From a virus, in the IMG/VR virus record IMGVR_UViG_3300021478_000015, positions 1 through 64,000 of that record: a stretch of DNA of 64,000 bases. One strand, written 5' to 3'. The notes beneath the pieces were generated by a model. That model saw nothing but the letters and a program-made list of their open reading frames with translations, had not been told where the DNA came from and did not search any database. Below are positions 41,666-50,623 of the stretch, one piece after another. The translations under genes and the position numbers were made by a program. Within the stretch, counting starts at the first letter, position 1; the number at the start of each line of letters is the position of its first letter.

Positions 41666-41697
41666 ACGTTAGCAAACTTTCCTAGAGAGTGCAAGTC
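41666..41697 (-). promoter_or_regulatory. promoter with operator motif (class B, spacer/-10)
   Basis: TTGCAC-17-TAACGT containing CTCTAGG-AAAGTT-TGCTAA. Confidence 0.85.
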
Positions 41698-41774
41698 GGG
41701 GTAGGTCCCCTACCCTTGTTGTCAGGTACAGGCCCCTCAAGTGCATAGATCCTTCGAAGCTCCTGAAAGTTAAG

Positions 41775-41800
41775 GGAGCCCCCTCCGAAGAAGGGGCTCC
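41775..41800 (-). terminator. hairpin after ArdC-like gene
   Basis: GGAGCCCC/GGGGCTCC inverted repeat. Confidence 0.6.
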
Positions 41801-41830
41801 AGGTCGTCGGTGGGGATCAGCACGGTGGTC

Positions 41831-42889
41831 TCAAGCAGCCACCTCCACGGGGCGCTCCTTGGCCCCCTCGCCGTCTGACTCGCCGTCCTTGGTCCAGCGG
41901 ATGCCCTGGACCCAGTCGGCGGCGTACTGGGCCTGGGAGGCGGCCTGCATGAGCCACTTGGGCTCGCTCTGCAGCTTGGACAGCCAGCCCTGTAGGTAGG
42001 CGGCCGAGTTGTCGATGGTGGAGTTCTCGATCCCGGCGATCCCGCACAGCATGGCGGCGGTCATCTCCGCGGTTAGCTCCTCCTTGGAGTAGCTGGTGTC
42101 CCCGAAGGAGTGCGACTCCATCAGGTCCTTGCGGGCCAGGCGGCTGGCGTGGCCCGTCGAGTGGCCCATCTCATGGAACAGGGTCGAGTAGTAGGCCTCG
42201 GGGGTGGTGAAGGCGGTGGGCTCGGGCATGCCGATGAAGTCCCGGCTGGGCGAGTAGTAGGCCCGGTTGCCGCCGTGGTGGACCTCGACCTCGGTGTAGC
42301 CGTCCGCCAGGGCCTGAGCCGCCTCGATGGCGTCGAACTCGGGGGCATCCTCGGCGGCCTCGGAGGGCTGGAACTTCTTCGGGAGCGTGCCCTGGTGGAC
42401 CTGATCCTGGTTCCAGACGTTGAACTCCTTGGGGAAGCGGATCCGGACCTTGCGGACCTTGCCGGTGGCCTCGTCCTTCTCCTCCTTGACGAAGCTCCCC
42501 CACCAGATGACCTTGGTGCATTTCTCGCCCTTGCGGACCCCGAAGTCGAGCCCCTCGGGATGGACCCAGGAGTTGCCCTCCTTGACCGCCCCGGCCTGGC
42601 GCGCCCACTCGTCGTAGGTGGCCCAGAAGGTGGACTTGTAGCCCTTCTCCAGGGCCTCGCCCAGGAGCAGCCAGAGGTTGATGCCCCGGTAGAGCTTGCC
42701 GGTGGAGACCGAGCGGGGGAACATGGAGCCGCCGTCCGCGGCCTTCCATTCCTGCAGCCAGATCAGCTTCTTGGTCTGCAGCGACAGGGCGCAGATGCGG
42801 TCAACGACCGACTGGTAGAGGTCCTTGCGGGGCTTGGCGGGGGTGACCCGGCCGGACTTGGTGGACTTGGACTTGGTGGTGGTGGCCAT
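41831..42889 (-). CDS. ardC: ArdC-like antirestriction protein (ssDNA-binding plus zincin domain)
   Basis: TGKLYRGIN, WATY..W, VRKGEK, RAYYSP..D.I.MP, HEMGH.TGH..RL.R, YSKEEL.AE. Confidence 0.92.
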   Translation of the reverse strand: MATTTKSKSTKSGRVTPAKPRKDLYQSVVDRICALSLQTKKLIWLQEWKAADGGSMFPRSVSTGKLYRGINLWLLLGEALEKGYKSTFWATYDEWARQAGAVKEGNSWVHPEGLDFGVRKGEKCTKVIWWGSFVKEEKDEATGKVRKVRIRFPKEFNVWNQDQVHQGTLPKKFQPSEAAEDAPEFDAIEAAQALADGYTEVEVHHGGNRAYYSPSRDFIGMPEPTAFTTPEAYYSTLFHEMGHSTGHASRLARKDLMESHSFGDTSYSKEELTAEMTAAMLCGIAGIENSTIDNSAAYLQGWLSKLQSEPKWLMQAASQAQYAADWVQGIRWTKDGESDGEGAKERPVEVAA

Positions 42890-42896
42890 GGGAAGT

Positions 42897-42928
42897 ACGT
42901 TAGCAGACTTTCTTAGAGGGCGCAAGTC
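42897..42928 (-). promoter_or_regulatory. promoter with operator motif (class B), leaderless
   Basis: TTGCGC-17-TAACGT-7-ATG; CTCTAAG-AAAGTC-TGCTAA. Confidence 0.85.
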
Positions 42929-42946
42929 ACCTTTGGCAAGAATGGC

Positions 42947-42986
42947 AAGAAAAGCGAGAGCCCCCGGTTGTAAGTCGGGGGCTCTC
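42947..42986 (-). terminator. intrinsic terminator
   Basis: 11-bp stem GAGAGCCCCCG/CGGGGGCTCTC followed by GCTTTTCTT. Confidence 0.85.
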
Positions 42987-43362
42987 ATTCCAGGTTGTGC
43001 TCGGTCCTGCGGTCCTGCCTGACGTGACCCGGAGCTTGGTTGCATCGCAGCTTGGTGGGCCAGGAGGCCCTCCCACTCTCTCCGGCAGGGTTAGCGTCCC
43101 TGCGTACTCTGTGGTTTTGATTGTCAGCGGTCAGTTCCCTGGGCTCAAGCCGTTCGCCCGAGGGCTCCCCGGATTCGACTACGCACGCCCTGGTGACCCG
43201 ACACTTAGCCCCGAGGGGCACTTCAGTGCCGGTGCCACTTCGAGTCGCGGTACCGGGGATGTAAGAGGGATGGGACGGGTGCGGAGGCTGGCCACTGGGC
43301 GGGCCTCCCTTCTGACTGCGGTGCGGGTTACGCCATAGCTTCCTTTCTCGATCGGTGAGTAC
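42947..43362 (-). ncRNA. candidate ~415-nt structured RNA with 5' Met-Ala-stop minigene
   Basis: Own operator-bearing promoter and terminator; no credible long ORF; many hairpins. Confidence 0.65.
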
Positions 43363-43369
43363 AGGAAGC

Positions 43370-43401
43370 ACGTTAGCAAGGATTCCTAGAGAAGTCAAGT
43401 C
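43370..43401 (-). promoter_or_regulatory. promoter with operator motif (class B)
   Basis: TTGACT-17-TAACGT; CTCTAGG-AATCCT-TGCTAA. Confidence 0.85.
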
Positions 43402-43579
43402 ACCTGCGGCGGGACTTGGAGTTCTCCCGGCGGGGATTACCGATGTGCCAGCAGGAGCACCAGGCGCACCGGTAGCTCCGGGTGGCCCAGCCTCGCGCCC
43501 GTGCTGCCTTGGCCACGTCGTTGGCTACCTCCCGCGTGGCGTACTGGTGCTTGCCGGTGACGCAGTCGCTGCCCTTCAT
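43400..43579 (-). CDS. small phage Zn-binding protein
   Basis: C.TGK..Y.T..A..YRC..C..WH. Confidence 0.7.
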   Translation of the reverse strand: MKGSDCVTGKHQYATREVANDVAKAARARGWATRSYRCAWCSCWHIGNPRRENSKSRRR

Positions 43580-43583
43580 GGGC

Positions 43584-43919
43584 TCACGCCTGGTGCAGGA
43601 GGGCCTGCTCCTTGGTGGTGAGCAGCTTCTCGATGTCATGCTCCCAGATGGACTCGCAGACACTGGCCAGGGTGCCGTCCTTTAACCGCCAGCGGACGGT
43701 GTAGGAATACTCCCCGGCCTCCTGGTGGATGTGGACGGTGACGATCTCGGCGTGGCGGGGAGCCCGGCCATGGCGGCCTGGGAGCTTCCTGAAGGCCCGC
43801 ACGGTGTCGCCTTCGTGGTACTTCGAGCCCGCCACCTGAGCGGCGTACAGCGCCTCCTGGGCGGCCTCCAGAGCCTCCTGGCACCGGGTCACCTCAGCGG
43901 CTAGCTCCTTGATGGTCAT
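43584..43919 (-). CDS. hypothetical protein
   Basis: TGATG overlap. Confidence 0.7.
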   Translation of the reverse strand: MTIKELAAEVTRCQEALEAAQEALYAAQVAGSKYHEGDTVRAFRKLPGRHGRAPRHAEIVTVHIHQEAGEYSYTVRWRLKDGTLASVCESIWEHDIEKLLTTKEQALLHQA

Positions 43920-44503
43920 CAGAAGTACAGGCCTTTCGGGTTCACGTCGGTGACCATGCCCAGCACGTCGATGGGGATCATGGCCCTCAGCTTGGGGGTG
44001 GCGTCCATGGCGGTGAAGATCTCCCTAGCAGGCCAACCGCCGACCGGGGCGTGGGCCAAGACTCTCCAGCCCTCCTGATCGAGCCCTGTGGGGCTCGCCA
44101 AGCGGAGAAAACGGCTCGCCTCACGTCCTGGGTCTACGGCAAGCTCTATGACCTCTGAGACGGGCTCAGGGGGCCGTCCCCACGCCCAGATGGATCCGGA
44201 GCCGTGAGGGACGTGGGGACGGTCGGACGCCCTGGCCATCAGGATGGTAGGGGCGCTGGTGTCGTAGCTCCACAGCGTGGCGTCCACTACCGTCACCTCG
44301 GGGTCGTAGGGGTCGCCCAGGACGGCCCAGGAGTGTTGCGAGCCCACGCCGCGGCAGCCTCCGCGGGCCACTCGGGCTCCCTCGGGCAGCAGACCGGAGC
44401 GGACGATGGCCAGGCTGACCGAGTGGCACTGGTGTGCCCAGTGGTCCTTGGGGATGTCGATGGCAGCCTCGACCGCCTCGACGGTGGGTGCGGTGAAGGT
44501 CAC
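43919..44503 (-). CDS. hypothetical protein with C..H..D triad-like pattern
   Basis: QCH..S..HSW..VVD. Confidence 0.7.
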   Translation of the reverse strand: MTFTAPTVEAVEAAIDIPKDHWAHQCHSVSLAIVRSGLLPEGARVARGGCRGVGSQHSWAVLGDPYDPEVTVVDATLWSYDTSAPTILMARASDRPHVPHGSGSIWAWGRPPEPVSEVIELAVDPGREASRFLRLASPTGLDQEGWRVLAHAPVGGWPAREIFTAMDATPKLRAMIPIDVLGMVTDVNPKGLYF

Positions 44504-44709
44504 TTGTACATCTCCTTATGGCGGGGGCAGTAGTCGAAGCCGTCCACCTTCCAGCCTGCGGCCTTGGCCGCTTTGCGGATGGCGGGCCGGGACTGGATGC
44601 CGTCGTAGGCGAAGGCGGCGGTGCAGGACTTCATGTCCCGCAGGGGATCGCCGCCTGCAGGCAGGTCGGCCCCGTCGCAGGTCACGGTCATTTGCTGGCG
44701 GACGCTCAT
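44500..44709 (-). CDS. small Zn-binding protein
   Basis: VTCD..C..GW..DYCP.H. Confidence 0.7.
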   Translation of the reverse strand: MSVRQQMTVTCDGADLPAGGDPLRDMKSCTAAFAYDGIQSRPAIRKAAKAAGWKVDGFDYCPRHKEMYK

Positions 44710-44945
44710 GGCTTGGCCACCGCATCCCGGCCCGTGTACCAGCCGATGGGACGCTGGTCAGCCCCAGGGTTGGGGCCAGCGTGGAAGTGGTTGGGGGTGT
44801 AGCGATGGTGCTGGTTGGCGTGCCAGCGGCTCATCTCGGTGAAGGTCCAGCTATGGCGCTTGACCGAGGACCGGGCCGCCTGGGTGCCGTGCATCTCTTG
44901 GATGTGATCGAACAGCACCTGCTTGGGGGTGGTGGTCTGTGGCAT
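44706..44945 (-). CDS. His-rich hypothetical protein, leaderless
   Basis: ATG 7 nt after -10. Confidence 0.75.
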   Translation of the reverse strand: MPQTTTPKQVLFDHIQEMHGTQAARSSVKRHSWTFTEMSRWHANQHHRYTPNHFHAGPNPGADQRPIGWYTGRDAVAKP

Positions 44946-44952
44946 GGCAAGC

Positions 44953-44984
44953 ACCTTAGCAGGAATCCTTAGAGGGCGCAAGTC
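44953..44984 (-). promoter_or_regulatory. promoter with operator motif (class B), leaderless
   Basis: TTGCGC-17-TAAGGT; CTCTAAG-GATTCC-TGCTAA. Confidence 0.85.
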
Positions 44985-44992
44985 GCCCAGGA

Positions 44993-46279
44993 CTACCAGC
45001 CCCAGGGGGCGATGGGCTCCCAGCCCAGCTTGGCCGTCACCTTGTTGATGGCGTCCTGGATGGCGTGCTGGGTCGCGTCTTCGCGGGCCTCGGGATGGCC
45101 CTGGTCGGCCACCCAGTCAGAGCCCTCACAGACACGGCCTTCGAGGTCAGCCCGCTGGAGCTTCCCGGTGCTGATCTCGCTGAGTATCAGCGTGACCATG
45201 CGGTGGACGGTAACGCCGCCCATGTGAGAGGGCATCTGATAAGGGGGAATCTCGCTCTTGGCCGGGCACTTTGATTTCGGTTGTGTCTTAGTAGTGGTCA
45301 TGGTGGACATCTTATCAAACTTCCTTATAGTAGCGGCGGTAGTTGTGGGGATTTGTGTCTTTGTTGTGAGGAAGGGGTCCAGGAGATCGCGGAAGTCTTC
45401 GTTCGTAGTGAGATCCCATATCGGAAACTTAATATCCTCGTTGTACTTCCGGTATAACCGGGCTGCTTCTAAATAATCAGGATCGCACCACTCACCCTCA
45501 TGCACCAGTCCGGTGATGCGGAAGTCACTATTCTCAAGGTCTGGGTAGTCCATCCAGCCCTTGGCCGGGGTAACGAGATGTCTGGGTGTCCTATGCCGCT
45601 CTTCCGGGCTGGCGGCGTCGTACCAGGCCTGCCATTCAGGTGTCCTTCTAAACCTGGAGTCCCTACTACTAGTATCCTTCCAGATCTTTCGTTGCTGTGC
45701 GTATCGTTGCACCCATCTCTTTATCTCAGTATCAGGCCAATCCTTGATTGCAGCCTGGGTTAACGCAGGTGGTACGTTGATCACATACATCAGCTTTGGT
45801 ATCTTGTGACCGGCTGCATAGTCTCTTGCTATTGCTTCGCTGAACTGAGTATGGGGGACTACTAGTGTCTGATCTGTTATCAGGCTGGATCCGACTCTTA
45901 TATTGGTGGATCCGAGTTCTCCATATCCACCGTAGCAAGGATGAATCAGTATCTTGGCCTTAGGGGGTCCTCCACTCACGTTTCTCACGTATTCAGGCGG
46001 TAGTAGCCTGTGGTGTAAGCGCTTGCTCTTGCCCTCGTCGTAGTTTCTGATCGTGGCTGGCCCATATACTTCAGCTATGCAATGCTCTCCTGTCTGTTGA
46101 GTCATGTCCGTCAACAGAGGATCGACAATGGATGTCACGATTTCCCACCAGGGCCAGCAGTTCGTGTTGGGTATGTACGATCCTGAGCCCTGACTGCCGT
46201 TCAGTAGCTGGCGGGAATCGATCACTGATCCATCGGTCAGGGTCATGGGGCCGCCGATGAGGATTATGGTGATGCTCAT
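44993..46279 (-). CDS. unknown protein, cassette paralogue B with C-terminal extension
   Basis: ATGA-coupled to paralogue A; shares five blocks with it; lower GC. Confidence 0.8.
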   Translation of the reverse strand: MSITIILIGGPMTLTDGSVIDSRQLLNGSQGSGSYIPNTNCWPWWEIVTSIVDPLLTDMTQQTGEHCIAEVYGPATIRNYDEGKSKRLHHRLLPPEYVRNVSGGPPKAKILIHPCYGGYGELGSTNIRVGSSLITDQTLVVPHTQFSEAIARDYAAGHKIPKLMYVINVPPALTQAAIKDWPDTEIKRWVQRYAQQRKIWKDTSSRDSRFRRTPEWQAWYDAASPEERHRTPRHLVTPAKGWMDYPDLENSDFRITGLVHEGEWCDPDYLEAARLYRKYNEDIKFPIWDLTTNEDFRDLLDPFLTTKTQIPTTTAATIRKFDKMSTMTTTKTQPKSKCPAKSEIPPYQMPSHMGGVTVHRMVTLILSEISTGKLQRADLEGRVCEGSDWVADQGHPEAREDATQHAIQDAINKVTAKLGWEPIAPWGW

Positions 46280-46374
46280 GTCGCCACCAGGAAGGGATCC
46301 AGGAGATCGCGGAAGTCTTCGTTCGTAGCGAGATCCCATATCGGGAACTTGATGTCCTCGTTGTGCTCCAGGTA
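45371..46374. repeat. direct repeat pair 45371-45454 and 46291-46374
   Basis: 84 bp with 8 mismatches by manual count; encodes the shared C-terminal block. Confidence 0.85.
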
Positions 46375-47067
46375 CCGCCGGGCTGCCTCCAGGTAGCAAG
46401 GGTCACACCACTTGCCACCCTTGACAAGACCTGTGATGCTGAAGTCACCATCCTCAGTGAATAGATCGCTGTTAGGAGATGCTTTAGTTTGAGGATGTTG
46501 ATTCTGGCGGTTCCAGCGATGTTCGCTGAACTGGTTGTGCGGAAGGATTATTATTTGCGCTGAATCAAAGCCTCTGATGTCTTGATTGTAATATGAGCGA
46601 ATCTGTATTCTCACATCACGCTTATACTTGGGTGAGCGTTGAGGATAGTACTCTATATCTGGGTTGGATGAGAGTAGGAGTTGGTTCAATCTAGAGTACT
46701 TGGCTAAGGCTATCCTATAAGGTCCTTCAATGATAGGCCTAATAGTGGGGATGCTTGATCTTAGGAGGGTTTCTAGATTTCTTCTTCTTGGCTTACCATT
46801 GCTAAACTCCATAGTCCACAGCGGGCAATCCTTGATCTCAGCTAGGGAGTGATCTCCGATCTGAGTTTCGAAGTCCTTTTGTCCGAAGCCTTGAAGTAAT
46901 GGATTGACTATTGAAATCACTGTTTCCCACCATGACCAACAGTTCGTATGTACTCTCATACTCGGGTATGTATACGGTAGTTGTCTAGAGTCAATGGTAG
47001 ATCCATCGGATAGGGTTATGAGACCACCGATGAGAATGATGGTGGTAGGCTCCTTAGCTAGCGACAT
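46276..47067 (-). CDS. unknown protein, cassette paralogue A
   Basis: Overlaps helicase stop; low GC. Confidence 0.8.
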   Translation of the reverse strand: MSLAKEPTTIILIGGLITLSDGSTIDSRQLPYTYPSMRVHTNCWSWWETVISIVNPLLQGFGQKDFETQIGDHSLAEIKDCPLWTMEFSNGKPRRRNLETLLRSSIPTIRPIIEGPYRIALAKYSRLNQLLLSSNPDIEYYPQRSPKYKRDVRIQIRSYYNQDIRGFDSAQIIILPHNQFSEHRWNRQNQHPQTKASPNSDLFTEDGDFSITGLVKGGKWCDPCYLEAARRYLEHNEDIKFPIWDLATNEDFRDLLDPFLVAT

Positions 47068-48949
47068 GGTATTGATCCTGGTAGGCAAGGAGTCTTTCTC
47101 TAAGTCTTTTGTTGCGTGAAGCTGCCAGAGCAAGAGTCGTAGCATCGACGGTTACTAGCTTGCCACGTTGTCTTTGATCTTCGATGTACAACTCGGCGCA
47201 CTCGATGAGCTTGACGGTGCCATATCCCCCTTGGGTGTCATAGGCGTCTCCTAGCTCAGCCACGGTGCCCAGGGGCTCGAATCGGACTCTCGGCTTAGGA
47301 GCACCCCGGACCTTGACTACCGGGGGATTAGCAGGCTCACCCTCGATCACGGTGAGGGGTGGTAACAGAGGGACCTCTCGTCTTATCCGTTCGGCCATGG
47401 AGATCAGGTCGGGATCGGCGGGCATGTAGATCCGGCCGATGTTGGTCGGGTCGTTGGGATCGATTCGCATCACCCGGCCCACGATCTGGCGGAAAGCCAG
47501 CTTGGTCTTGGTATTGGTCAGGTAGACCACGGCTCGCAGACGGCGGATGTCGATGCCCTCCGAGATCATGTTGACGGCCACCAGCCAGCGCTTGCTGGCA
47601 TGGTGGGCCTTGAACTGGCGGATGACATCGGCGGCATTTTGATCGTCAGGGTTGGTGTCCTTGGACCAGGCCTTCATCGGTTTGATACCGGTGATCTTCT
47701 CTAGGCGCTTGGCGATGCGTTCGGCGTGATCACAGTCGTAACACACCACTAATCCGGCAGCATCAGGATCACCATTGTCGCGGATATCGATCAGCCAATC
47801 ATTGGCTTTGTGTATTAGCTGATCGGTGATGGTCCCATCCCCGATGCAATCCAGGGCGGTAAGCAGACGGCGTTTCTTTCCGAGTGTGCTTACATCCGGG
47901 TCGTTAAAGTCGAGGGTGTGCTCGGTGCCGTCCTCGTTGCGGAAGGTGGTCGATCCCTGGGTAGTGAGGAACTGCACCCGGCGGCAGGCCGGAGGTTTGT
48001 CCCGAAGAGCATGGCCATAGGTGTAGCGATAGAGCGGTTTGGCAGCACCTCCGGTATGGGGCACGAAGGCAATCTTCTTGGCGTCGGTACGGAACGGGGT
48101 CCCTGACATCGACAGGATGCACCGGGCTCCCTGGGCGAAGGCGGTCTGGGCGGCCAGGCCCCAGGTCTTGTCGGTGGCGACGTGGTGGACCTCATCGAAG
48201 ATGACCAGGGTGTTGTGGTGAACGTTGGTGGTCGTCCGGCCCTTTTTCTCGATACTGATGTCAGTGGCGTGGGCCAGGAAGGTGTCAGTCATTCTGGCCA
48301 GGGATTGGTAGCTGAGGACCGCTCCCACAGCGTTGTCTGGGATGGCCCTGGTGGGCCTCCAGATCGCCCCTCTGGTGCTAACCAGGGGCAGGGTGGGGTT
48401 GTCGGGCTCTCGCTTGCTGGCGGCTAGCAGCCAGCCGTCTGCGATGCCGATGGTGTGAACCACCACCAACACCCGCGAGATCTCCCCAGCCTTGATCAGA
48501 TGGTGGGCTACCTCCAGGGCCAGGCGGGTCTTGCCTGCACCGGGGCAGGCCTCGATCAGTACCGGGTCGTTCAGGATACGGGGTAGGATCTTGTCCAGAG
48601 CCTGCTCCTGCCAGTGCCGGAGCCTGTCGTCCCCGGCTGCCAGCAGGTCCAGGTTGAACTGCTTGGCCAGGGTCTCGTAGGTCTGGTTGCCCTTGCGGGC
48701 GTTGCAATGACGGCACAGGGCCATGAGGTTGGAGTAGACGGTGCGGCCACCCTTGCTCCAGGGGAAGACGTGGTCGCCGTCGAAGAGGTCACGGGGAAGC
48801 TCGCGCTGGCAGGGCGGGCACTTCCTGCCTTGGGCCTCCCACTTGCGGATCACCTCGGCGCGGCTGAACCTCCGGTGAGGATCCCGTTGATCCAGGGGTA
48901 CGTCAGGGATCTTGGGCTCGCCCAGCAGGACGGCTCCGGTGAGGTTCAT
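47054..48949 (-). CDS. HNH endonuclease fused to SF2 (restriction Res-like) helicase
   Basis: C..C..DHVFPWSKGG..NL..LC..CN..K; PGAGKT, DEVHH, SGTP, EGID, QIVGR. Confidence 0.92.
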   Translation of the reverse strand: MNLTGAVLLGEPKIPDVPLDQRDPHRRFSRAEVIRKWEAQGRKCPPCQRELPRDLFDGDHVFPWSKGGRTVYSNLMALCRHCNARKGNQTYETLAKQFNLDLLAAGDDRLRHWQEQALDKILPRILNDPVLIEACPGAGKTRLALEVAHHLIKAGEISRVLVVVHTIGIADGWLLAASKREPDNPTLPLVSTRGAIWRPTRAIPDNAVGAVLSYQSLARMTDTFLAHATDISIEKKGRTTTNVHHNTLVIFDEVHHVATDKTWGLAAQTAFAQGARCILSMSGTPFRTDAKKIAFVPHTGGAAKPLYRYTYGHALRDKPPACRRVQFLTTQGSTTFRNEDGTEHTLDFNDPDVSTLGKKRRLLTALDCIGDGTITDQLIHKANDWLIDIRDNGDPDAAGLVVCYDCDHAERIAKRLEKITGIKPMKAWSKDTNPDDQNAADVIRQFKAHHASKRWLVAVNMISEGIDIRRLRAVVYLTNTKTKLAFRQIVGRVMRIDPNDPTNIGRIYMPADPDLISMAERIRREVPLLPPLTVIEGEPANPPVVKVRGAPKPRVRFEPLGTVAELGDAYDTQGGYGTVKLIECAELYIEDQRQRGKLVTVDATTLALAASRNKRLRERLLAYQDQYHVAS

Positions 48950-49089
48950 GACTCCACCTGGACCCGGCCCCGGCAGGCGCGCTTAGCGGCCACCTTCTTC
49001 TTGGACTGGACGGTCTTGGCCCGCAGGGGGACGTGGGGGTTCATGACCCGCGCCCCAGGGCGGGCGGAGGTGCGTCTGGGCTTGGCCAT
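48946..49089 (-). CDS. small basic peptide (47 aa)
   Basis: TGATG and ATGA overlaps; MAKPRR..SKKKVAAKRACR. Confidence 0.65.
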   Translation of the reverse strand: MAKPRRTSARPGARVMNPHVPLRAKTVQSKKKVAAKRACRGRVQVES

Positions 49090-49340
49090 CAGACCTCCAC
49101 CTCCACGGTGACCTTGCCACCCTCGATGGCGACCAGCTTGGCCCCCAACCGGCGCACACGGGCCAACACGGCCCCGGAGGAGGAGTGGGCGTAGCCCACG
49201 ATCTCAGCCCCGGTGAAGGTCTTCTCGAAGCCCACGCCCCGGCCGTTCCGGACGATCATCTCGCCCTTGGCGTAGTGGGCCTTGACCAAAGCGAACTTGG
49301 CCCCGGAGCGGGTCTTGATGGTGACGGTGGTGGTGGTCAT
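49089..49340 (-). CDS. hypothetical protein, leaderless
   Basis: ATG 7 nt after -10. Confidence 0.75.
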   Translation of the reverse strand: MTTTTVTIKTRSGAKFALVKAHYAKGEMIVRNGRGVGFEKTFTGAEIVGYAHSSSGAVLARVRRLGAKLVAIEGGKVTVEVEV

Positions 49341-49347
49341 GGGAAGT

Positions 49348-49379
49348 ACCTTAGCAAACTTTCTTAGAGGGTGCAAGTC
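49348..49379 (-). promoter_or_regulatory. promoter with operator motif (class B), leaderless
   Basis: TTGCAC-17-TAAGGT; CTCTAAG-AAAGTT-TGCTAA. Confidence 0.85.
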
Positions 49380-49396
49380 ACCCCGGACGCGAAGAA

Positions 49397-49418
49397 GGAG
49401 GTCCCTTAGAGGACCTCC
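49397..49418 (-). terminator. hairpin terminator
   Basis: GGAGGTCC/GGACCTCC inverted repeat followed by TTCTTC. Confidence 0.6.
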
Positions 49419-49448
49419 CTCTTGCTTCCTGCCGCCCCTGCAGGAGAC

Positions 49449-49694
49449 TTAGATCTTGACGGGCTGCTTCACCTCCCGGACGAACCGGCGCACCGGCCCG
49501 GCCTGGGGGTAGGTGTGGTAGATCCCCACCGAGGTCACCTCGGGGTGCTCGGCCAGGAAGGTCTCGGCAAAGCCCAGGGCGGACTGCTCGGCGGCGGCCT
49601 GGCGCTTACCGGCTGAGGCCTGGATCATCAGGCTGCGCCGGTCGCCCTGGCGGGGCTCGATCTCGTATTCGTGCTTGTCACTGGGGGTACGCAT
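49449..49694 (-). CDS. hypothetical protein
   Basis: TAAGGA SD. Confidence 0.75.
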   Translation of the reverse strand: MRTPSDKHEYEIEPRQGDRRSLMIQASAGKRQAAAEQSALGFAETFLAEHPEVTSVGIYHTYPQAGPVRRFVREVKQPVKI

Positions 49695-49719
49695 GGCGTT
49701 TTCCTTACTTACTAGTAGG

Positions 49720-50094
49720 TCAGATGATGGTGTCTTTGTTCACGGTCCCGCAGCGGCTGCAGGTCCGGTATTCGTAGGTCCCACCGGCCACCACGTAGTC
49801 ATGAGGAAGATGGGCCGGGGTCCGGCCGCAGACCGGGTCGTACTCGATGGTGCGAGCCTCGCCCAGGTGCTCCCAGCCGATGATGTCCAGGATGTGCCGG
49901 TCGGTCTGGGTGTAGAAGTCATGGACGACCATGCCCTGGCCATCACAGGGCTCTGTCTGCTCCCAGGGCTCACTCTGCTCCGCCCGGACGCTCAGGAAGC
50001 CTCCACAGGCCTCACAGCGGGGCTGGACGGCCTCCTGGCCCTCGTAGTCAGGCTCCCTGGTCGCCCAGGCGTCGTAGCCGCGCAGGCCTACCAT
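49720..50094 (-). CDS. Zn-ribbon hypothetical protein
   Basis: CEACG..CSRCG; start reassigned to ATG 50094. Confidence 0.65.
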   Translation of the reverse strand: MVGLRGYDAWATREPDYEGQEAVQPRCEACGGFLSVRAEQSEPWEQTEPCDGQGMVVHDFYTQTDRHILDIIGWEHLGEARTIEYDPVCGRTPAHLPHDYVVAGGTYEYRTCSRCGTVNKDTII

Positions 50095-50276
50095 CCCCGG
50101 TTCTCCTTGCGAAGCTCGGCCCGCCGCTCGGCGGCATCTTCCTCCTGGTCGGCCATCCAGGCATTGAACTGGTCCTGGGCCTCGATCGAGTCGGTGTCCA
50201 GGTCGGCTGGGGTGATCTCCTCGGCCCAGCGGGTGAAGGCCTCCTCGTAGGCCTCGTCGTAGGGGGATGCCCTCAT
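50088..50276 (-). CDS. small acidic protein
   Basis: GGAGG SD, ATGA overlap. Confidence 0.7.
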   Translation of the reverse strand: MRASPYDEAYEEAFTRWAEEITPADLDTDSIEAQDQFNAWMADQEEDAAERRAELRKENRGW

Positions 50277-50584
50277 GACTGCACCTCCAGGTACGCCTCG
50301 ATGCTGGACAGGGACACCTTGTGGCCACGGGCGATCTGCTGACCGGCCTGGCGGCCTGAGTGGGCTAGGCCCCGGTAGGATTCACTGGCCGAGACGCGGC
50401 CCTGGGCATCGATGCTGAACTCCCAGAAGTTTGAGCCCTGAGGCATGTGGTTGGCGATGGTGACGTGGCGGTAGCTGCCGTAGAAGCGCTCCTCGACCAC
50501 AAAGTGGCGGCGGTAGGCGGCGGCGATGATGGCTTCGACCCGGCGCACTGACCGGGAGCGAACTGGTGTGGTGGTCTCAGGCAT
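50273..50584 (-). CDS. hypothetical protein, leaderless
   Basis: ATG 7 nt after -10. Confidence 0.75.
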   Translation of the reverse strand: MPETTTPVRSRSVRRVEAIIAAAYRRHFVVEERFYGSYRHVTIANHMPQGSNFWEFSIDAQGRVSASESYRGLAHSGRQAGQQIARGHKVSLSSIEAYLEVQS

Positions 50585-50591
50585 GACTGGT

Positions 50592-50623
50592 ACATTAGCA
50601 GATTCGCTTAGAGAGGGCAAGTC
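50592..50623 (-). promoter_or_regulatory. promoter with operator motif (class B), leaderless
   Basis: TTGCCC-17-TAATGT; CTCTAAG-CGAATC-TGCTAA. Confidence 0.85.

What the first reader, a model, noticed from the sequence alone, without database searches (positions are those of the whole stretch)
44993..48949. HNH-helicase plus two scaffold-and-hypervariable-insert paralogues: candidate new restriction-like system
Seen: an HNH-SF2 helicase gene overlaps two coupled ORFs. They share blocks TIILIGG..TL.DGS.IDSRQL, TNCW.WWE.V.SIV.PLL, Q.G.H..AE, PH.QFSE and DF.ITGLV..G.WCDP.YLEAAR.Y...NEDIKFPIWDL.TNEDFRDLLDPFL, but have unrelated inserts of different lengths between them. GC visibly drops from the helicase 3' end through both genes, and the last block is ~90% identical in DNA over 84 bp. 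Established: conserved blocks flanking variable domains is the logic of type I HsdS subunits, though these proteins do not resemble HsdS. Inference: nuclease-motor with exchangeable specificity or immunity subunits, shuffled via the conserved blocks and expressed early against host DNA or competing phages.
Basis: partly seen in the sequence, partly recalled or inferred. Interest (0 to 1): 0.85.

Follow-up and report, generated by a model that had tools for sequence, protein, structure and literature searches.

The report
Phage copy of HNH-helicase/partner module
A large high-GC phage carries a DNA-cutting helicase followed by two diverged copies of an unannotated partner gene; the same helicase-partner pair recurs in bacterial defence islands and mobile elements across several phyla, so it is a good but untested candidate for an undescribed defence-type system.

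Summary
On the minus strand lie an intact HNH + SF2 helicase (47054-48949), paralogue A (263 aa, 46276-47067) and paralogue B (428 aa, 44993-46279). They are translationally coupled. A and B share N- and C-terminal blocks, and GC falls to 0.47 and 0.55.

The paralogues are not orphans. They are short members of an unannotated family of about 500 aa. That family sits immediately next to a helicase 46-51% identical to the phage one in 19 of 21 bacterial genome loci. Every close-clade metagenome helicase with downstream sequence (12 of 12) also has it. No third gene is conserved. Flanks hold relaxases, integrases, transposases, Qat, AbiE, TIR and cas genes.

The shared blocks are the core of one alpha/beta domain. 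Its fold weakly but consistently resembles the second RecA-like lobe of SF2 helicases. Bacterial partners add a YbjN-like or HEAT-repeat C-terminal domain that the phage copies lack. B's tail is an in-frame run into a separate small phage gene.

Partners diverge faster than the helicase (41% against 67% identity) and are tandemly duplicated in three independent loci.

My reading is a conflict module with a nuclease-motor effector and a variable adaptor or sensor partner. The HsdS-like shuffling idea is unsupported. No function has been tested.

The parts
49348..49369 (-). Promoter/operator-like motif CTCTAAG-N7-GCTAAGGT that heads the operon. The ATG lies 7 nt downstream, so the transcript is probably leaderless.
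   Evidence: There are 8 copies in the window against 0.6 expected, 7 of them on the minus strand between 41.6 and 50.6 kb. The sequence was read. A hairpin with a T-run lies just upstream at about 49397-49418.
49089..49340 (-). Small ORF 1 (83 aa, starts MTTTTV), first gene of the operon.
   Evidence: Sequence read. Its stop overlaps the ATG of ORF 2 by 1 nt.
48946..49089 (-). Small basic ORF 2 (47 aa). Its stop overlaps the helicase ATG (ATGA).
   Evidence: Sequence read.
47054..48949 (-). HNH endonuclease + SF2 (ResIII/Helicase_C) helicase, 631 aa, with all catalytic motifs intact.
   Evidence: Pfam hits. It is 46-51% identical over about 95% of its length to more than 100 bacterial proteins. 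Invariant motifs are shown. The nearest solved sequences are XPB-type helicases, type ISP enzymes and HsdR.
46276..47067 (-). Paralogue A, 263 aa: a short partner consisting of the RecA-like adaptor domain only. GC is 0.47.
   Evidence: The AF2 model has pLDDT 72.6, with the conserved blocks confident. Fold hits are SF2 RecA2 lobes at Z up to 5.8.
45365..46279 (-). Paralogue B core (aa 1-305), a short partner. It is closer than A to the single-copy homologue P0006.
45309..45330 (-). Degenerate copy of the promoter motif inside B's reading frame, 7 nt before ATG 45301.
   Evidence: 3 mismatches. Sequence read.
44993..45301 (-). Small phage gene (about 102 aa, starts MTTTK) that is in frame with B with no stop between them. 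It forms B's apparent C-terminal extension.
   Evidence: B residues 342-428 match stand-alone proteins of 90-98 aa. These are separate genes on other contigs. It is single-copy in this genome. GC rises to 0.62-0.70 here.

Best explanation
This is a phage-borne copy of a conserved, so far unannotated two-gene conflict module.

Gene 1 is a nuclease-motor, an HNH endonuclease fused to an SF2 translocase/helicase. Gene 2 is a fast-evolving partner. Its N-terminal alpha/beta domain has a fold like the second RecA lobe of SF2 helicases. I infer that this domain docks on the motor. Its C-terminal part is modular: YbjN/chaperone-like in most bacterial members, HEAT repeats in some, and absent in the phage copies. 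I infer that this part senses or selects the target.

The phage expresses the helicase and two sensor-less partner paralogues from one translationally coupled operon behind a phage promoter motif. The most likely use is nuclease-based interference with foreign or competing DNA, that is, defence-like exclusion or competition between mobile elements. The paralogues would set when or on what the motor-nuclease acts.

Shown here: gene anatomy, intact catalytic motifs, strict linkage in both directions, family-wide modular architecture, faster divergence of the partner, recurrent duplication, and mobile-element or defence-island settings.

Inferred: physical binding, the sensor or adaptor role, and any defence or competition phenotype.
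For: - Linkage from the partner side: in 19 of 21 genome loci the helicase lies immediately upstream. The same holds in L004 and L005.
- Linkage from the helicase side: 12 of 12 close-clade metagenome helicases with downstream sequence have the partner.
- No other gene is conserved around the pair.
- Overlaps of 4 nt or similar are kept in distant members.
- More distant HNH-helicases (28-39% identity) and an HNH-less class never have the partner.
- Flanking genes include TrwC and integrase, type I-E cas genes, a TIR protein, QatABCD with ApeA, AbiEi/AbiEii, transposases and resolvases.
- The family is rare and patchy. Apart from the genome used to centre the search, only one partial match was found in 400 Actinomycetota genomes, yet it occurs in Actinomycetota, Acidobacteriota, and Delta- and Alphaproteobacteria MAGs.
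- The partner diverges faster: mean pairwise identity is 41% against 67% for the helicase.
- Tandem partner pairs occur in the phage, L008 and L059.
- The full-length partner model has pLDDT 92.8 and pTM 0.90. Residues 3-300 hit almost only SF2 RecA2 lobes at Z 5.5-7.0. Residues 343-490 hit YbjN-family chains at Z 5.5-5.8.
- HEAT-repeat variants exist.
- All helicase catalytic motifs are kept in the phage.
Against: - No function has been tested anywhere, and PADLOC holds no model for the partner, so 'defence' rests on context only.
- The fold matches are middling (Z below 8). There is no sequence or profile link between the partner and helicase domains (hhalign probability 0.4%).
- The phage copies lack the putative sensor domain and have changed two residues that are invariant in bacterial partners (R286 and G292 in P0007 numbering). 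They may therefore work differently or be decaying.
- The low GC of A and B could mark relaxed constraint.
- Relaxase-rich flanks fit a DNA-processing role as well as a defence role.
Confidence: 0.5

Rival explanations
1. This is a DNA-processing accessory of mobile elements and large phages. The HNH-helicase with its partner would remodel or resolve replication, recombination or transfer intermediates, much as XPB-Bax1 or UvsW-type enzymes do. It would not be an immune or competition device.
For: The helicase's nearest solved sequences are XPB-type (E 3e-8). The phage encodes its own PolIII alpha, DnaB, RNR and ThyX. Several bacterial copies sit next to TrwC relaxases.
Against: The flanks vary completely from locus to locus. 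The module is rare and patchy. It lies beside Qat, AbiE, TIR and cas genes. The partner evolves fast, swaps C-terminal domains and duplicates, which is unusual for a housekeeping accessory. In the phage it lies among accessory genes such as ArdC, not in the replication block.
Confidence: 0.2
2. This is counter-defence. The sensor-less phage partners would act as decoys or dominant-negative subunits that bind and silence a host-encoded HNH-helicase of the same clade. Alternatively the whole cassette attacks a host defence.
For: The phage partners keep only the putative docking domain. The cassette is close to an ArdC-like anti-restriction gene. The bacterial helicases are about 49% identical to the phage one.
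Against: The phage also keeps a fully intact helicase-nuclease that is translationally coupled to the partners. A pure decoy would not need it. The host and its gene content are unknown.
Confidence: 0.1
3. A and B would be HsdS-like exchangeable specificity or immunity subunits whose variable inserts are shuffled by recombination through the conserved blocks.
For: Conserved blocks flank a variable centre. The C block is 80-90% identical at the DNA level. More than one partner per helicase recurs.
Against: The blocks are the fold core of a single domain. They are direct repeats, so recombination would delete rather than swap. The module holds no recombinase, no inverted copies and no methyltransferase. 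There is no Methylase_S or any other Pfam hit. The tandem copies in L008 and L059 are only 31-34% identical throughout, with no high-identity blocks.
Confidence: 0.07
4. A and B are decaying remnants. They would be truncated, AT-drifting pseudogene-like leftovers of a captured bacterial partner, and only the helicase would still be functional.
For: GC and GC3 are low. The C-terminal domain is lost. B has lost its stop codon and runs into the next gene. The centre of A has low pLDDT.
Against: Both reading frames are open over 263 and 305 codons. The same short, low-GC, helicase-overlapping form is kept in the diverged relative L004, whose helicase C-terminus is 55% identical to the phage one. 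Differences in the C block fall mostly at third codon positions (18 of 33; 14 synonymous against 12 non-synonymous codon changes).
Confidence: 0.08

Closest known systems
Type I / type ISP / type III restriction motors (HsdR, LlaGI/LlaBIII, Res)
   Same: A nuclease is joined to an SF2 (ResIII-type) translocase and works with a separate, faster-evolving subunit. The helicase core gives weak sequence matches to HsdR and the type ISP enzymes.
   Different: The nuclease is HNH rather than PD-(D/E)xK. There is no methyltransferase in the module. The partner has no HsdS/TRD signature and has a different fold.
Druantia type III (DruH sensor + DruE helicase-nuclease), as summarised in the abstract of PMC13192584 listed
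   Same: It is a two-gene logic: a large, poorly annotated partner proposed to sense infection, plus a helicase-nuclease effector.
   Different: Neither PADLOC nor Pfam reported a DruE or DUF1998 match for the helicase. PADLOC found no match for the partner, DruH included. The resemblance is one of logic only.
Hachiman (HamA nuclease + HamB helicase) and Gabija (GajA + GajB)
   Same: These are two-gene helicase-plus-nuclease defence modules found in defence islands.
   Different: There the nuclease and the helicase are separate proteins, whereas here they are fused and the second protein has no recognisable catalytic motif. There are no HamA or GajA hits. The GajB hits cover only the Walker region.
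Archaeal XPB-Bax1 helicase-nuclease pair
   Same: The best solved sequence relatives of the helicase core are XPBII/Rad25. XPB lobe 2 is among the fold hits of the partner's N-domain.
   Different: The matches are weak (E 3e-8 over the RecA1 lobe; Z 5-7). Bax1 carries the nuclease in that pair, whereas here the nuclease is on the helicase.
Phage HNH-helicases such as Saccharomonospora phage PIS 136 gp093
   Same: They have an HNH/SF2 helicase architecture in an actinophage, 34% identical over 82% of the query.
   Different: No partner gene follows the helicase in that phage or in nine viral contigs that carry a similar helicase. The window's helicase belongs instead to the clade that is 46-51% identical and bacterial.

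Membership tests
Type I restriction-modification (HsdR/HsdM/HsdS) | A specificity subunit with two target-recognition domains (Pfam Methylase_S) | tested here: not met
   Pfam found nothing for A, B, P0006 or eight full-length partners at E up to 0.01-0.1. The predicted fold is an alpha/beta RecA-like domain plus a YbjN-like domain.
Type I restriction-modification (HsdR/HsdM/HsdS) | A linked methyltransferase | tested here: not met
   Only the helicase and the partner are conserved across 22 loci. No methyltransferase family appears among the recurrent neighbour families.
Type I restriction-modification (HsdR/HsdM/HsdS) | An HsdR-type motor with a PD-(D/E)xK nuclease | tested here: not met
   The nuclease is HNH (PF01844/PF14279). 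The NCBIfam HsdR equivalog scores of 40-52 bits are far below their cut-offs of 550-729.
Any system in PADLOC-DB v2.0.0 | Both proteins match the models of one system | tested here: not met
   The partner has no hit. The helicase has only partial helicase-core or HNH hits (best is PbeA at 56.6 bits over the C-terminal lobe).
Druantia III / YprA-family helicase systems | A DUF1998-containing YprA-type helicase | tested here: inconclusive
   No DUF1998 or DruE hit appears in the Pfam or PADLOC tables. I did not run a dedicated YprA profile.
SF2 helicase RecA-like lobe 2 (as a fold, for the partner's N-domain) | Structural superposition on RecA2 lobes | tested here: inconclusive
   More than 40 of the top 50 VIA-align hits are SF2 RecA2 lobes, at Z 5.5-7.0 for P0007 and up to 5.8 for A. 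That is below the Z 8 level at which such hits are reliable.
SF2 helicase RecA-like lobe 2 (as a fold, for the partner's N-domain) | Helicase motifs IV-VI or sequence-profile similarity | tested here: not met
   hhalign of the partner profile against the helicase profile gives probability 0.4%. Pfam finds no Helicase_C hit.
YbjN / type III secretion chaperone-like fold (partner C-domain, bacterial members only) | Structural match to YbjN-family structures | tested here: inconclusive
   Foldseek gives 4h5b at probability 0.89 and E 0.07, and 6vu7, 1ry9 and 3kxy at probability 0.57-0.63. VIA-align gives 5fr7, 2plg and 4h5b at Z 5.5-5.8. Pfam finds no YbjN hit.

The most novel reading that the evidence does not exclude
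The HNH-helicase/partner pair is a new family of anti-phage or anti-plasmid immune systems. A pseudo-helicase (RecA2-like) adaptor domain couples interchangeable sensor domains (YbjN-like, HEAT) to a nuclease-motor. This phage has domesticated the system with two sensor-less adaptors. They would either turn the nuclease into a constitutive weapon against competing DNA or blind the host's own copy.
Probability: 0.3. Interest if true: 0.8.

Novelty: new variant of a known kind. Interest (0 to 1): 0.62.

Why it matters
If the pair is a working conflict system, it adds a nuclease-motor family with an undescribed, structurally confident partner (pLDDT 93). That partner has no entry in Pfam, NCBIfam, PHROGs or PADLOC. 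The helicase alone has at least 829 homologue clusters at E below 1e-30.

The partner's modular tail (YbjN-like, HEAT or none) and its repeated duplication give a direct handle on how such motors are targeted or triggered.

The phage copy, with two sensor-less partners, is a natural minimal version. It could show whether phages reuse bacterial immune nucleases for competition or for counter-defence.

The module also occurs in Mycobacteroides abscessus genomic islands. Phage resistance there has practical interest for phage therapy.

Tried and rejected
- Megablast and tblastn of the region and of paralogue A against 50,697 phage records found nothing. A tblastn of P0007 against plasmids also found nothing.
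- A pattern scan of IMG/VR for the phage-type partner found none. Profile searches of 11 viral loci that carry distant HNH-helicases found no partner.
- Pfam, PHROGs, NCBIfam and PADLOC gave nothing for the partners.
- The ESM Atlas feature search gave no usable hit.
- A PDB sequence-profile search with the partner found nothing below E 0.1. Foldseek against the PDB found nothing at E 1e-3 or better.
- hhalign of partner against helicase tested whether the partner is a duplicated helicase lobe. It gave no signal.
- Complex prediction for helicase plus A returned 'weak support'. The median score was 0.44 and the best control 0.00. That mark was reached by 58 of 80 solved complexes and 2 of 110 mismatched pairs, but scores of 0.60 or under were reached by only 7 of those 80 and by both mismatches. 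The runs agreed in at least 38% of contacts, and partner pLDDT was at least 52. I do not count this as evidence either way.
- P0063, an apparent 266-aa short partner, proved to be a full-length gene split by a frameshift. It is not a second example of the short form.
- The tail of B is not a paralogue-specific domain. It is a neighbouring small gene.
- Literature searches for HNH-helicase two-gene systems found no description of this pair in the held library. This does not prove that none exists elsewhere.
- Earlier notes of this scan hold nothing similar on other DNA.
Full report
**Setting**

The window is the first 64 kb of a 156,983-bp IMG/VR virus record that CheckV rates as complete. It is GC-rich (0.626). 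It encodes its own PolIII alpha, DnaB-like helicase, RNR and ThyX. It has no near relative among 50,697 phage records.

The finding lies in a minus-strand block (about 40-53 kb) of accessory genes that includes an ArdC-like protein. A motif, CTCTAAG-N7-GCTAAGGT, occurs 8 times in the window against 0.6 expected. Seven copies are on the minus strand of this block, each 7 nt before an ATG. I read them as phage promoters of probably leaderless transcripts.

**Anatomy**

One such motif (49348-49369) heads an operon whose genes overlap:
- ORF1 (83 aa) and ORF2 (47 aa, basic) overlap by 1 nt.
- ORF2 and the helicase overlap by 4 nt.
- The helicase and A overlap by 14 nt.
- A and B overlap by 4 nt.

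The helicase (631 aa) has HNH, ResIII and Helicase_C domains. It retains every invariant motif of its clade.

A is 263 aa and B is 428 aa. They share an N block (48% identity over 90 aa) and a C block (79% over 56 aa). At the DNA level the C block is 168 nt at 80% identity, and 90.5% over its best 84 nt.

**B's tail is another gene**

B residues 342-428 match stand-alone proteins of 90-98 aa. These are separate genes on other phage-like contigs. A degenerate copy of the promoter motif lies inside B's frame (45309-45330), exactly 7 nt before ATG 45301. That ATG opens an MTTTK... reading frame like the other promoter-proximal genes. GC returns to 0.62-0.70 there. B ends where A and P0006 end (DPFLxxT), but it has no stop codon and runs in frame into the next gene.

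**The paralogues belong to a larger family tied to the helicase**

A word-indexed search found only A, B and one relative, P0006. P0006 is 252 aa and lies on a 1.56-kb contig, where it again overlaps the 3' end of a helicase homologue and again has low GC.

An exhaustive phmmer search found 94 cluster representatives. Most are 450-530 aa and match both the N block and the C block.

In 21 genome loci, 19 have the helicase directly upstream of the partner. These loci are from Streptomyces, Streptacidiphilus, Pseudonocardia, Acidimicrobiia, Solirubrobacterales, Acidobacteriota and proteobacterial MAGs. The helicase there is 46-49% identical to the phage protein over nearly its whole length. Clustering all ORFs across the loci shows that nothing else is conserved.

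Anchoring on the helicase instead gives the same answer. All 12 close-clade metagenome helicases with downstream sequence have the partner. In 11 of them it lies on the same strand. In one (L058) it lies tail-to-tail on the opposite strand. More distant helicases never have the partner. This holds for those at 28-39% identity and for an abundant HNH-less class at 35-38%.

**What the partner looks like**

AlphaFold2 on a 40-sequence alignment gives a very confident model of a full-length member, P0007 (pLDDT 92.8, pTM 0.90).

Foldseek finds nothing significant. An exhaustive structural alignment places residues 3-300 almost exclusively on the second RecA-like lobe of SF2 helicases, at Z 5.5-7.0. 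The hits include DRH-1, XPB/Ssl2, DbpA, INO80, FANCM, HsdR, EcoP15I Res, RecG, Mfd and UvrB. Residues 343-490 fall on YbjN-family folds at Z 5.5-5.8. Foldseek adds the type III secretion chaperones for this domain (probability 0.5-0.9).

The model of phage paralogue A is confident in the shared blocks and poor in the centre (pLDDT 72.6). It gives the same RecA2-type hit list, led by T4 UvsW at Z 5.8. These Z values are middling. I treat the fold assignment as probable, not established. There is no profile-level link to helicase domains.

The 'inserts' are its central part, whose length varies across the whole family.

Bacterial members add a C-terminal domain. It is YbjN-like in most and HEAT repeats in the 816-875-aa variants, which are still overlapped with the helicase. 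The phage clade (A, the core of B, and P0006) has none.

**Evolutionary behaviour**

- Across 15 pairs the helicase averages 67% identity and the partner 41%.
- Tandem partner pairs occur in three independent places: the phage, L008 and L059. The bacterial pairs are 31-34% identical to each other.
- The module is rare. Apart from the genome used to centre the search, only one partial match was found in 400 evenly sampled Actinomycetota genomes. That match is in an unpublished genome, G227, and no other claim rests on it.
- The module is nevertheless spread over several phyla.
- The helicase clade has at least 829 clusters at E below 1e-30, all with generic names.

**Context**

Flanks differ from locus to locus:
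- TrwC relaxase with type I-E cas genes (L005).
- A TIR protein, an HNH protein and an IS110 transposase (L027).
- TrwC with an integrase (L028).
- QatABCD with ApeA (L030).
- A gene-dense island of hypothetical genes with excisionase-like HTH genes in Mycobacteroides abscessus.
- Among 104 neighbours of the genome loci: integrases, resolvases, several transposase families, TrwC, AbiEi/AbiEii and Ser/Thr kinases of PD-T4-6/MADS type.

This is the setting of defence islands and mobile elements. It is suggestive, not proof.

**Mechanism proposed**

Shown: an intact HNH-SF2 motor, a strictly linked and translationally coupled partner, and the partner's modular and rapidly changing architecture.

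Inferred: the partner's RecA-like domain docks on the motor, and the variable C-terminal domain senses an invader or selects the target. Together they gate or direct ATP-driven translocation and HNH cleavage. In logic this resembles sensor plus helicase-nuclease pairs such as Druantia III, and motor plus specificity-subunit restriction enzymes.

The phage version has two sensor-less partners. It may be a constitutively armed or differently gated form used against competing DNA. A decoy role against a host copy is a less likely alternative. The complex prediction gave only weak support and is reported under Tried and rejected.

**Low GC**

In bacteria the partner is only 0-6 points below the helicase. 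In the phage and in L004 it is 7-14 points lower. The diverged L004 relative shares the feature, so it is old in this lineage and not a sign of very recent transfer. Rapid, AT-biased turnover under weak or diversifying selection is my guess. I leave this unexplained.

**Comparison with known systems and novelty**

The pair fails the tested defining features of type I R-M: no HsdS-type subunit, no methyltransferase and no PD-(D/E)xK nuclease. It matches no PADLOC system (see the membership table). I found no paper in the held library that describes it.

I class it as a new variant of a known kind: a nuclease-helicase conflict module with a new partner family. Function is untested. The phage-borne, duplicated, sensor-less form is the unusual part.

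Noticed in passing
window 41666-50613 (minus strand) and 2933-2954 (plus strand): The motif CTCTAAG-N7-GCTAAGGT has eight copies (0.6 expected by chance). At the three copies I read, it lies 7 nt before an ATG that opens a Thr-rich N-terminus. These are likely phage promoters with an operator that drive leaderless transcripts.
   Followed up: partly
window 44993-45301 (minus strand): A small phage gene of about 102 aa, with stand-alone homologues of 90-98 aa elsewhere, is in frame with paralogue B with no stop codon between them. It may be made both as a fusion and on its own.
   Followed up: partly
window 48946-49340 (minus strand): Two small ORFs (83 aa, and 47 aa that is very basic) are translationally coupled upstream of the helicase. 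I did not check whether bacterial modules have equivalents.
   Followed up: no
L058:1054-4568: In one metagenome locus the partner gene lies on the opposite strand, tail-to-tail with the helicase. This is the only inverted arrangement seen.
   Followed up: no
L008:5956-8714 and L059:5823-8691: Two bacterial or metagenomic loci also carry two tandem, full-length partner genes after one helicase. The two copies are 31-34% identical.
   Followed up: partly
L071-L132 (metagenome loci): An abundant related helicase class is 35-38% identical to residues 110-525 of the phage helicase. It lacks the HNH domain and is never followed by the partner family. Its own neighbours were not examined.
   Followed up: no
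window 41831-43045 (minus strand): An ArdC-like protein (ArdcN plus a zincin-like MPTase-PolyVal domain) lies about 2 kb downstream of the cassette on the same strand.
   Followed up: no
L038:10001-13263 (Mycobacteroides abscessus GCA_015023625.1): The full module (598-aa helicase and 489-aa partner, 4-nt overlap) sits in a dense island of hypothetical and excisionase-like genes in M. abscessus. It is carried on at least 10 contigs in public data.
   Followed up: partly
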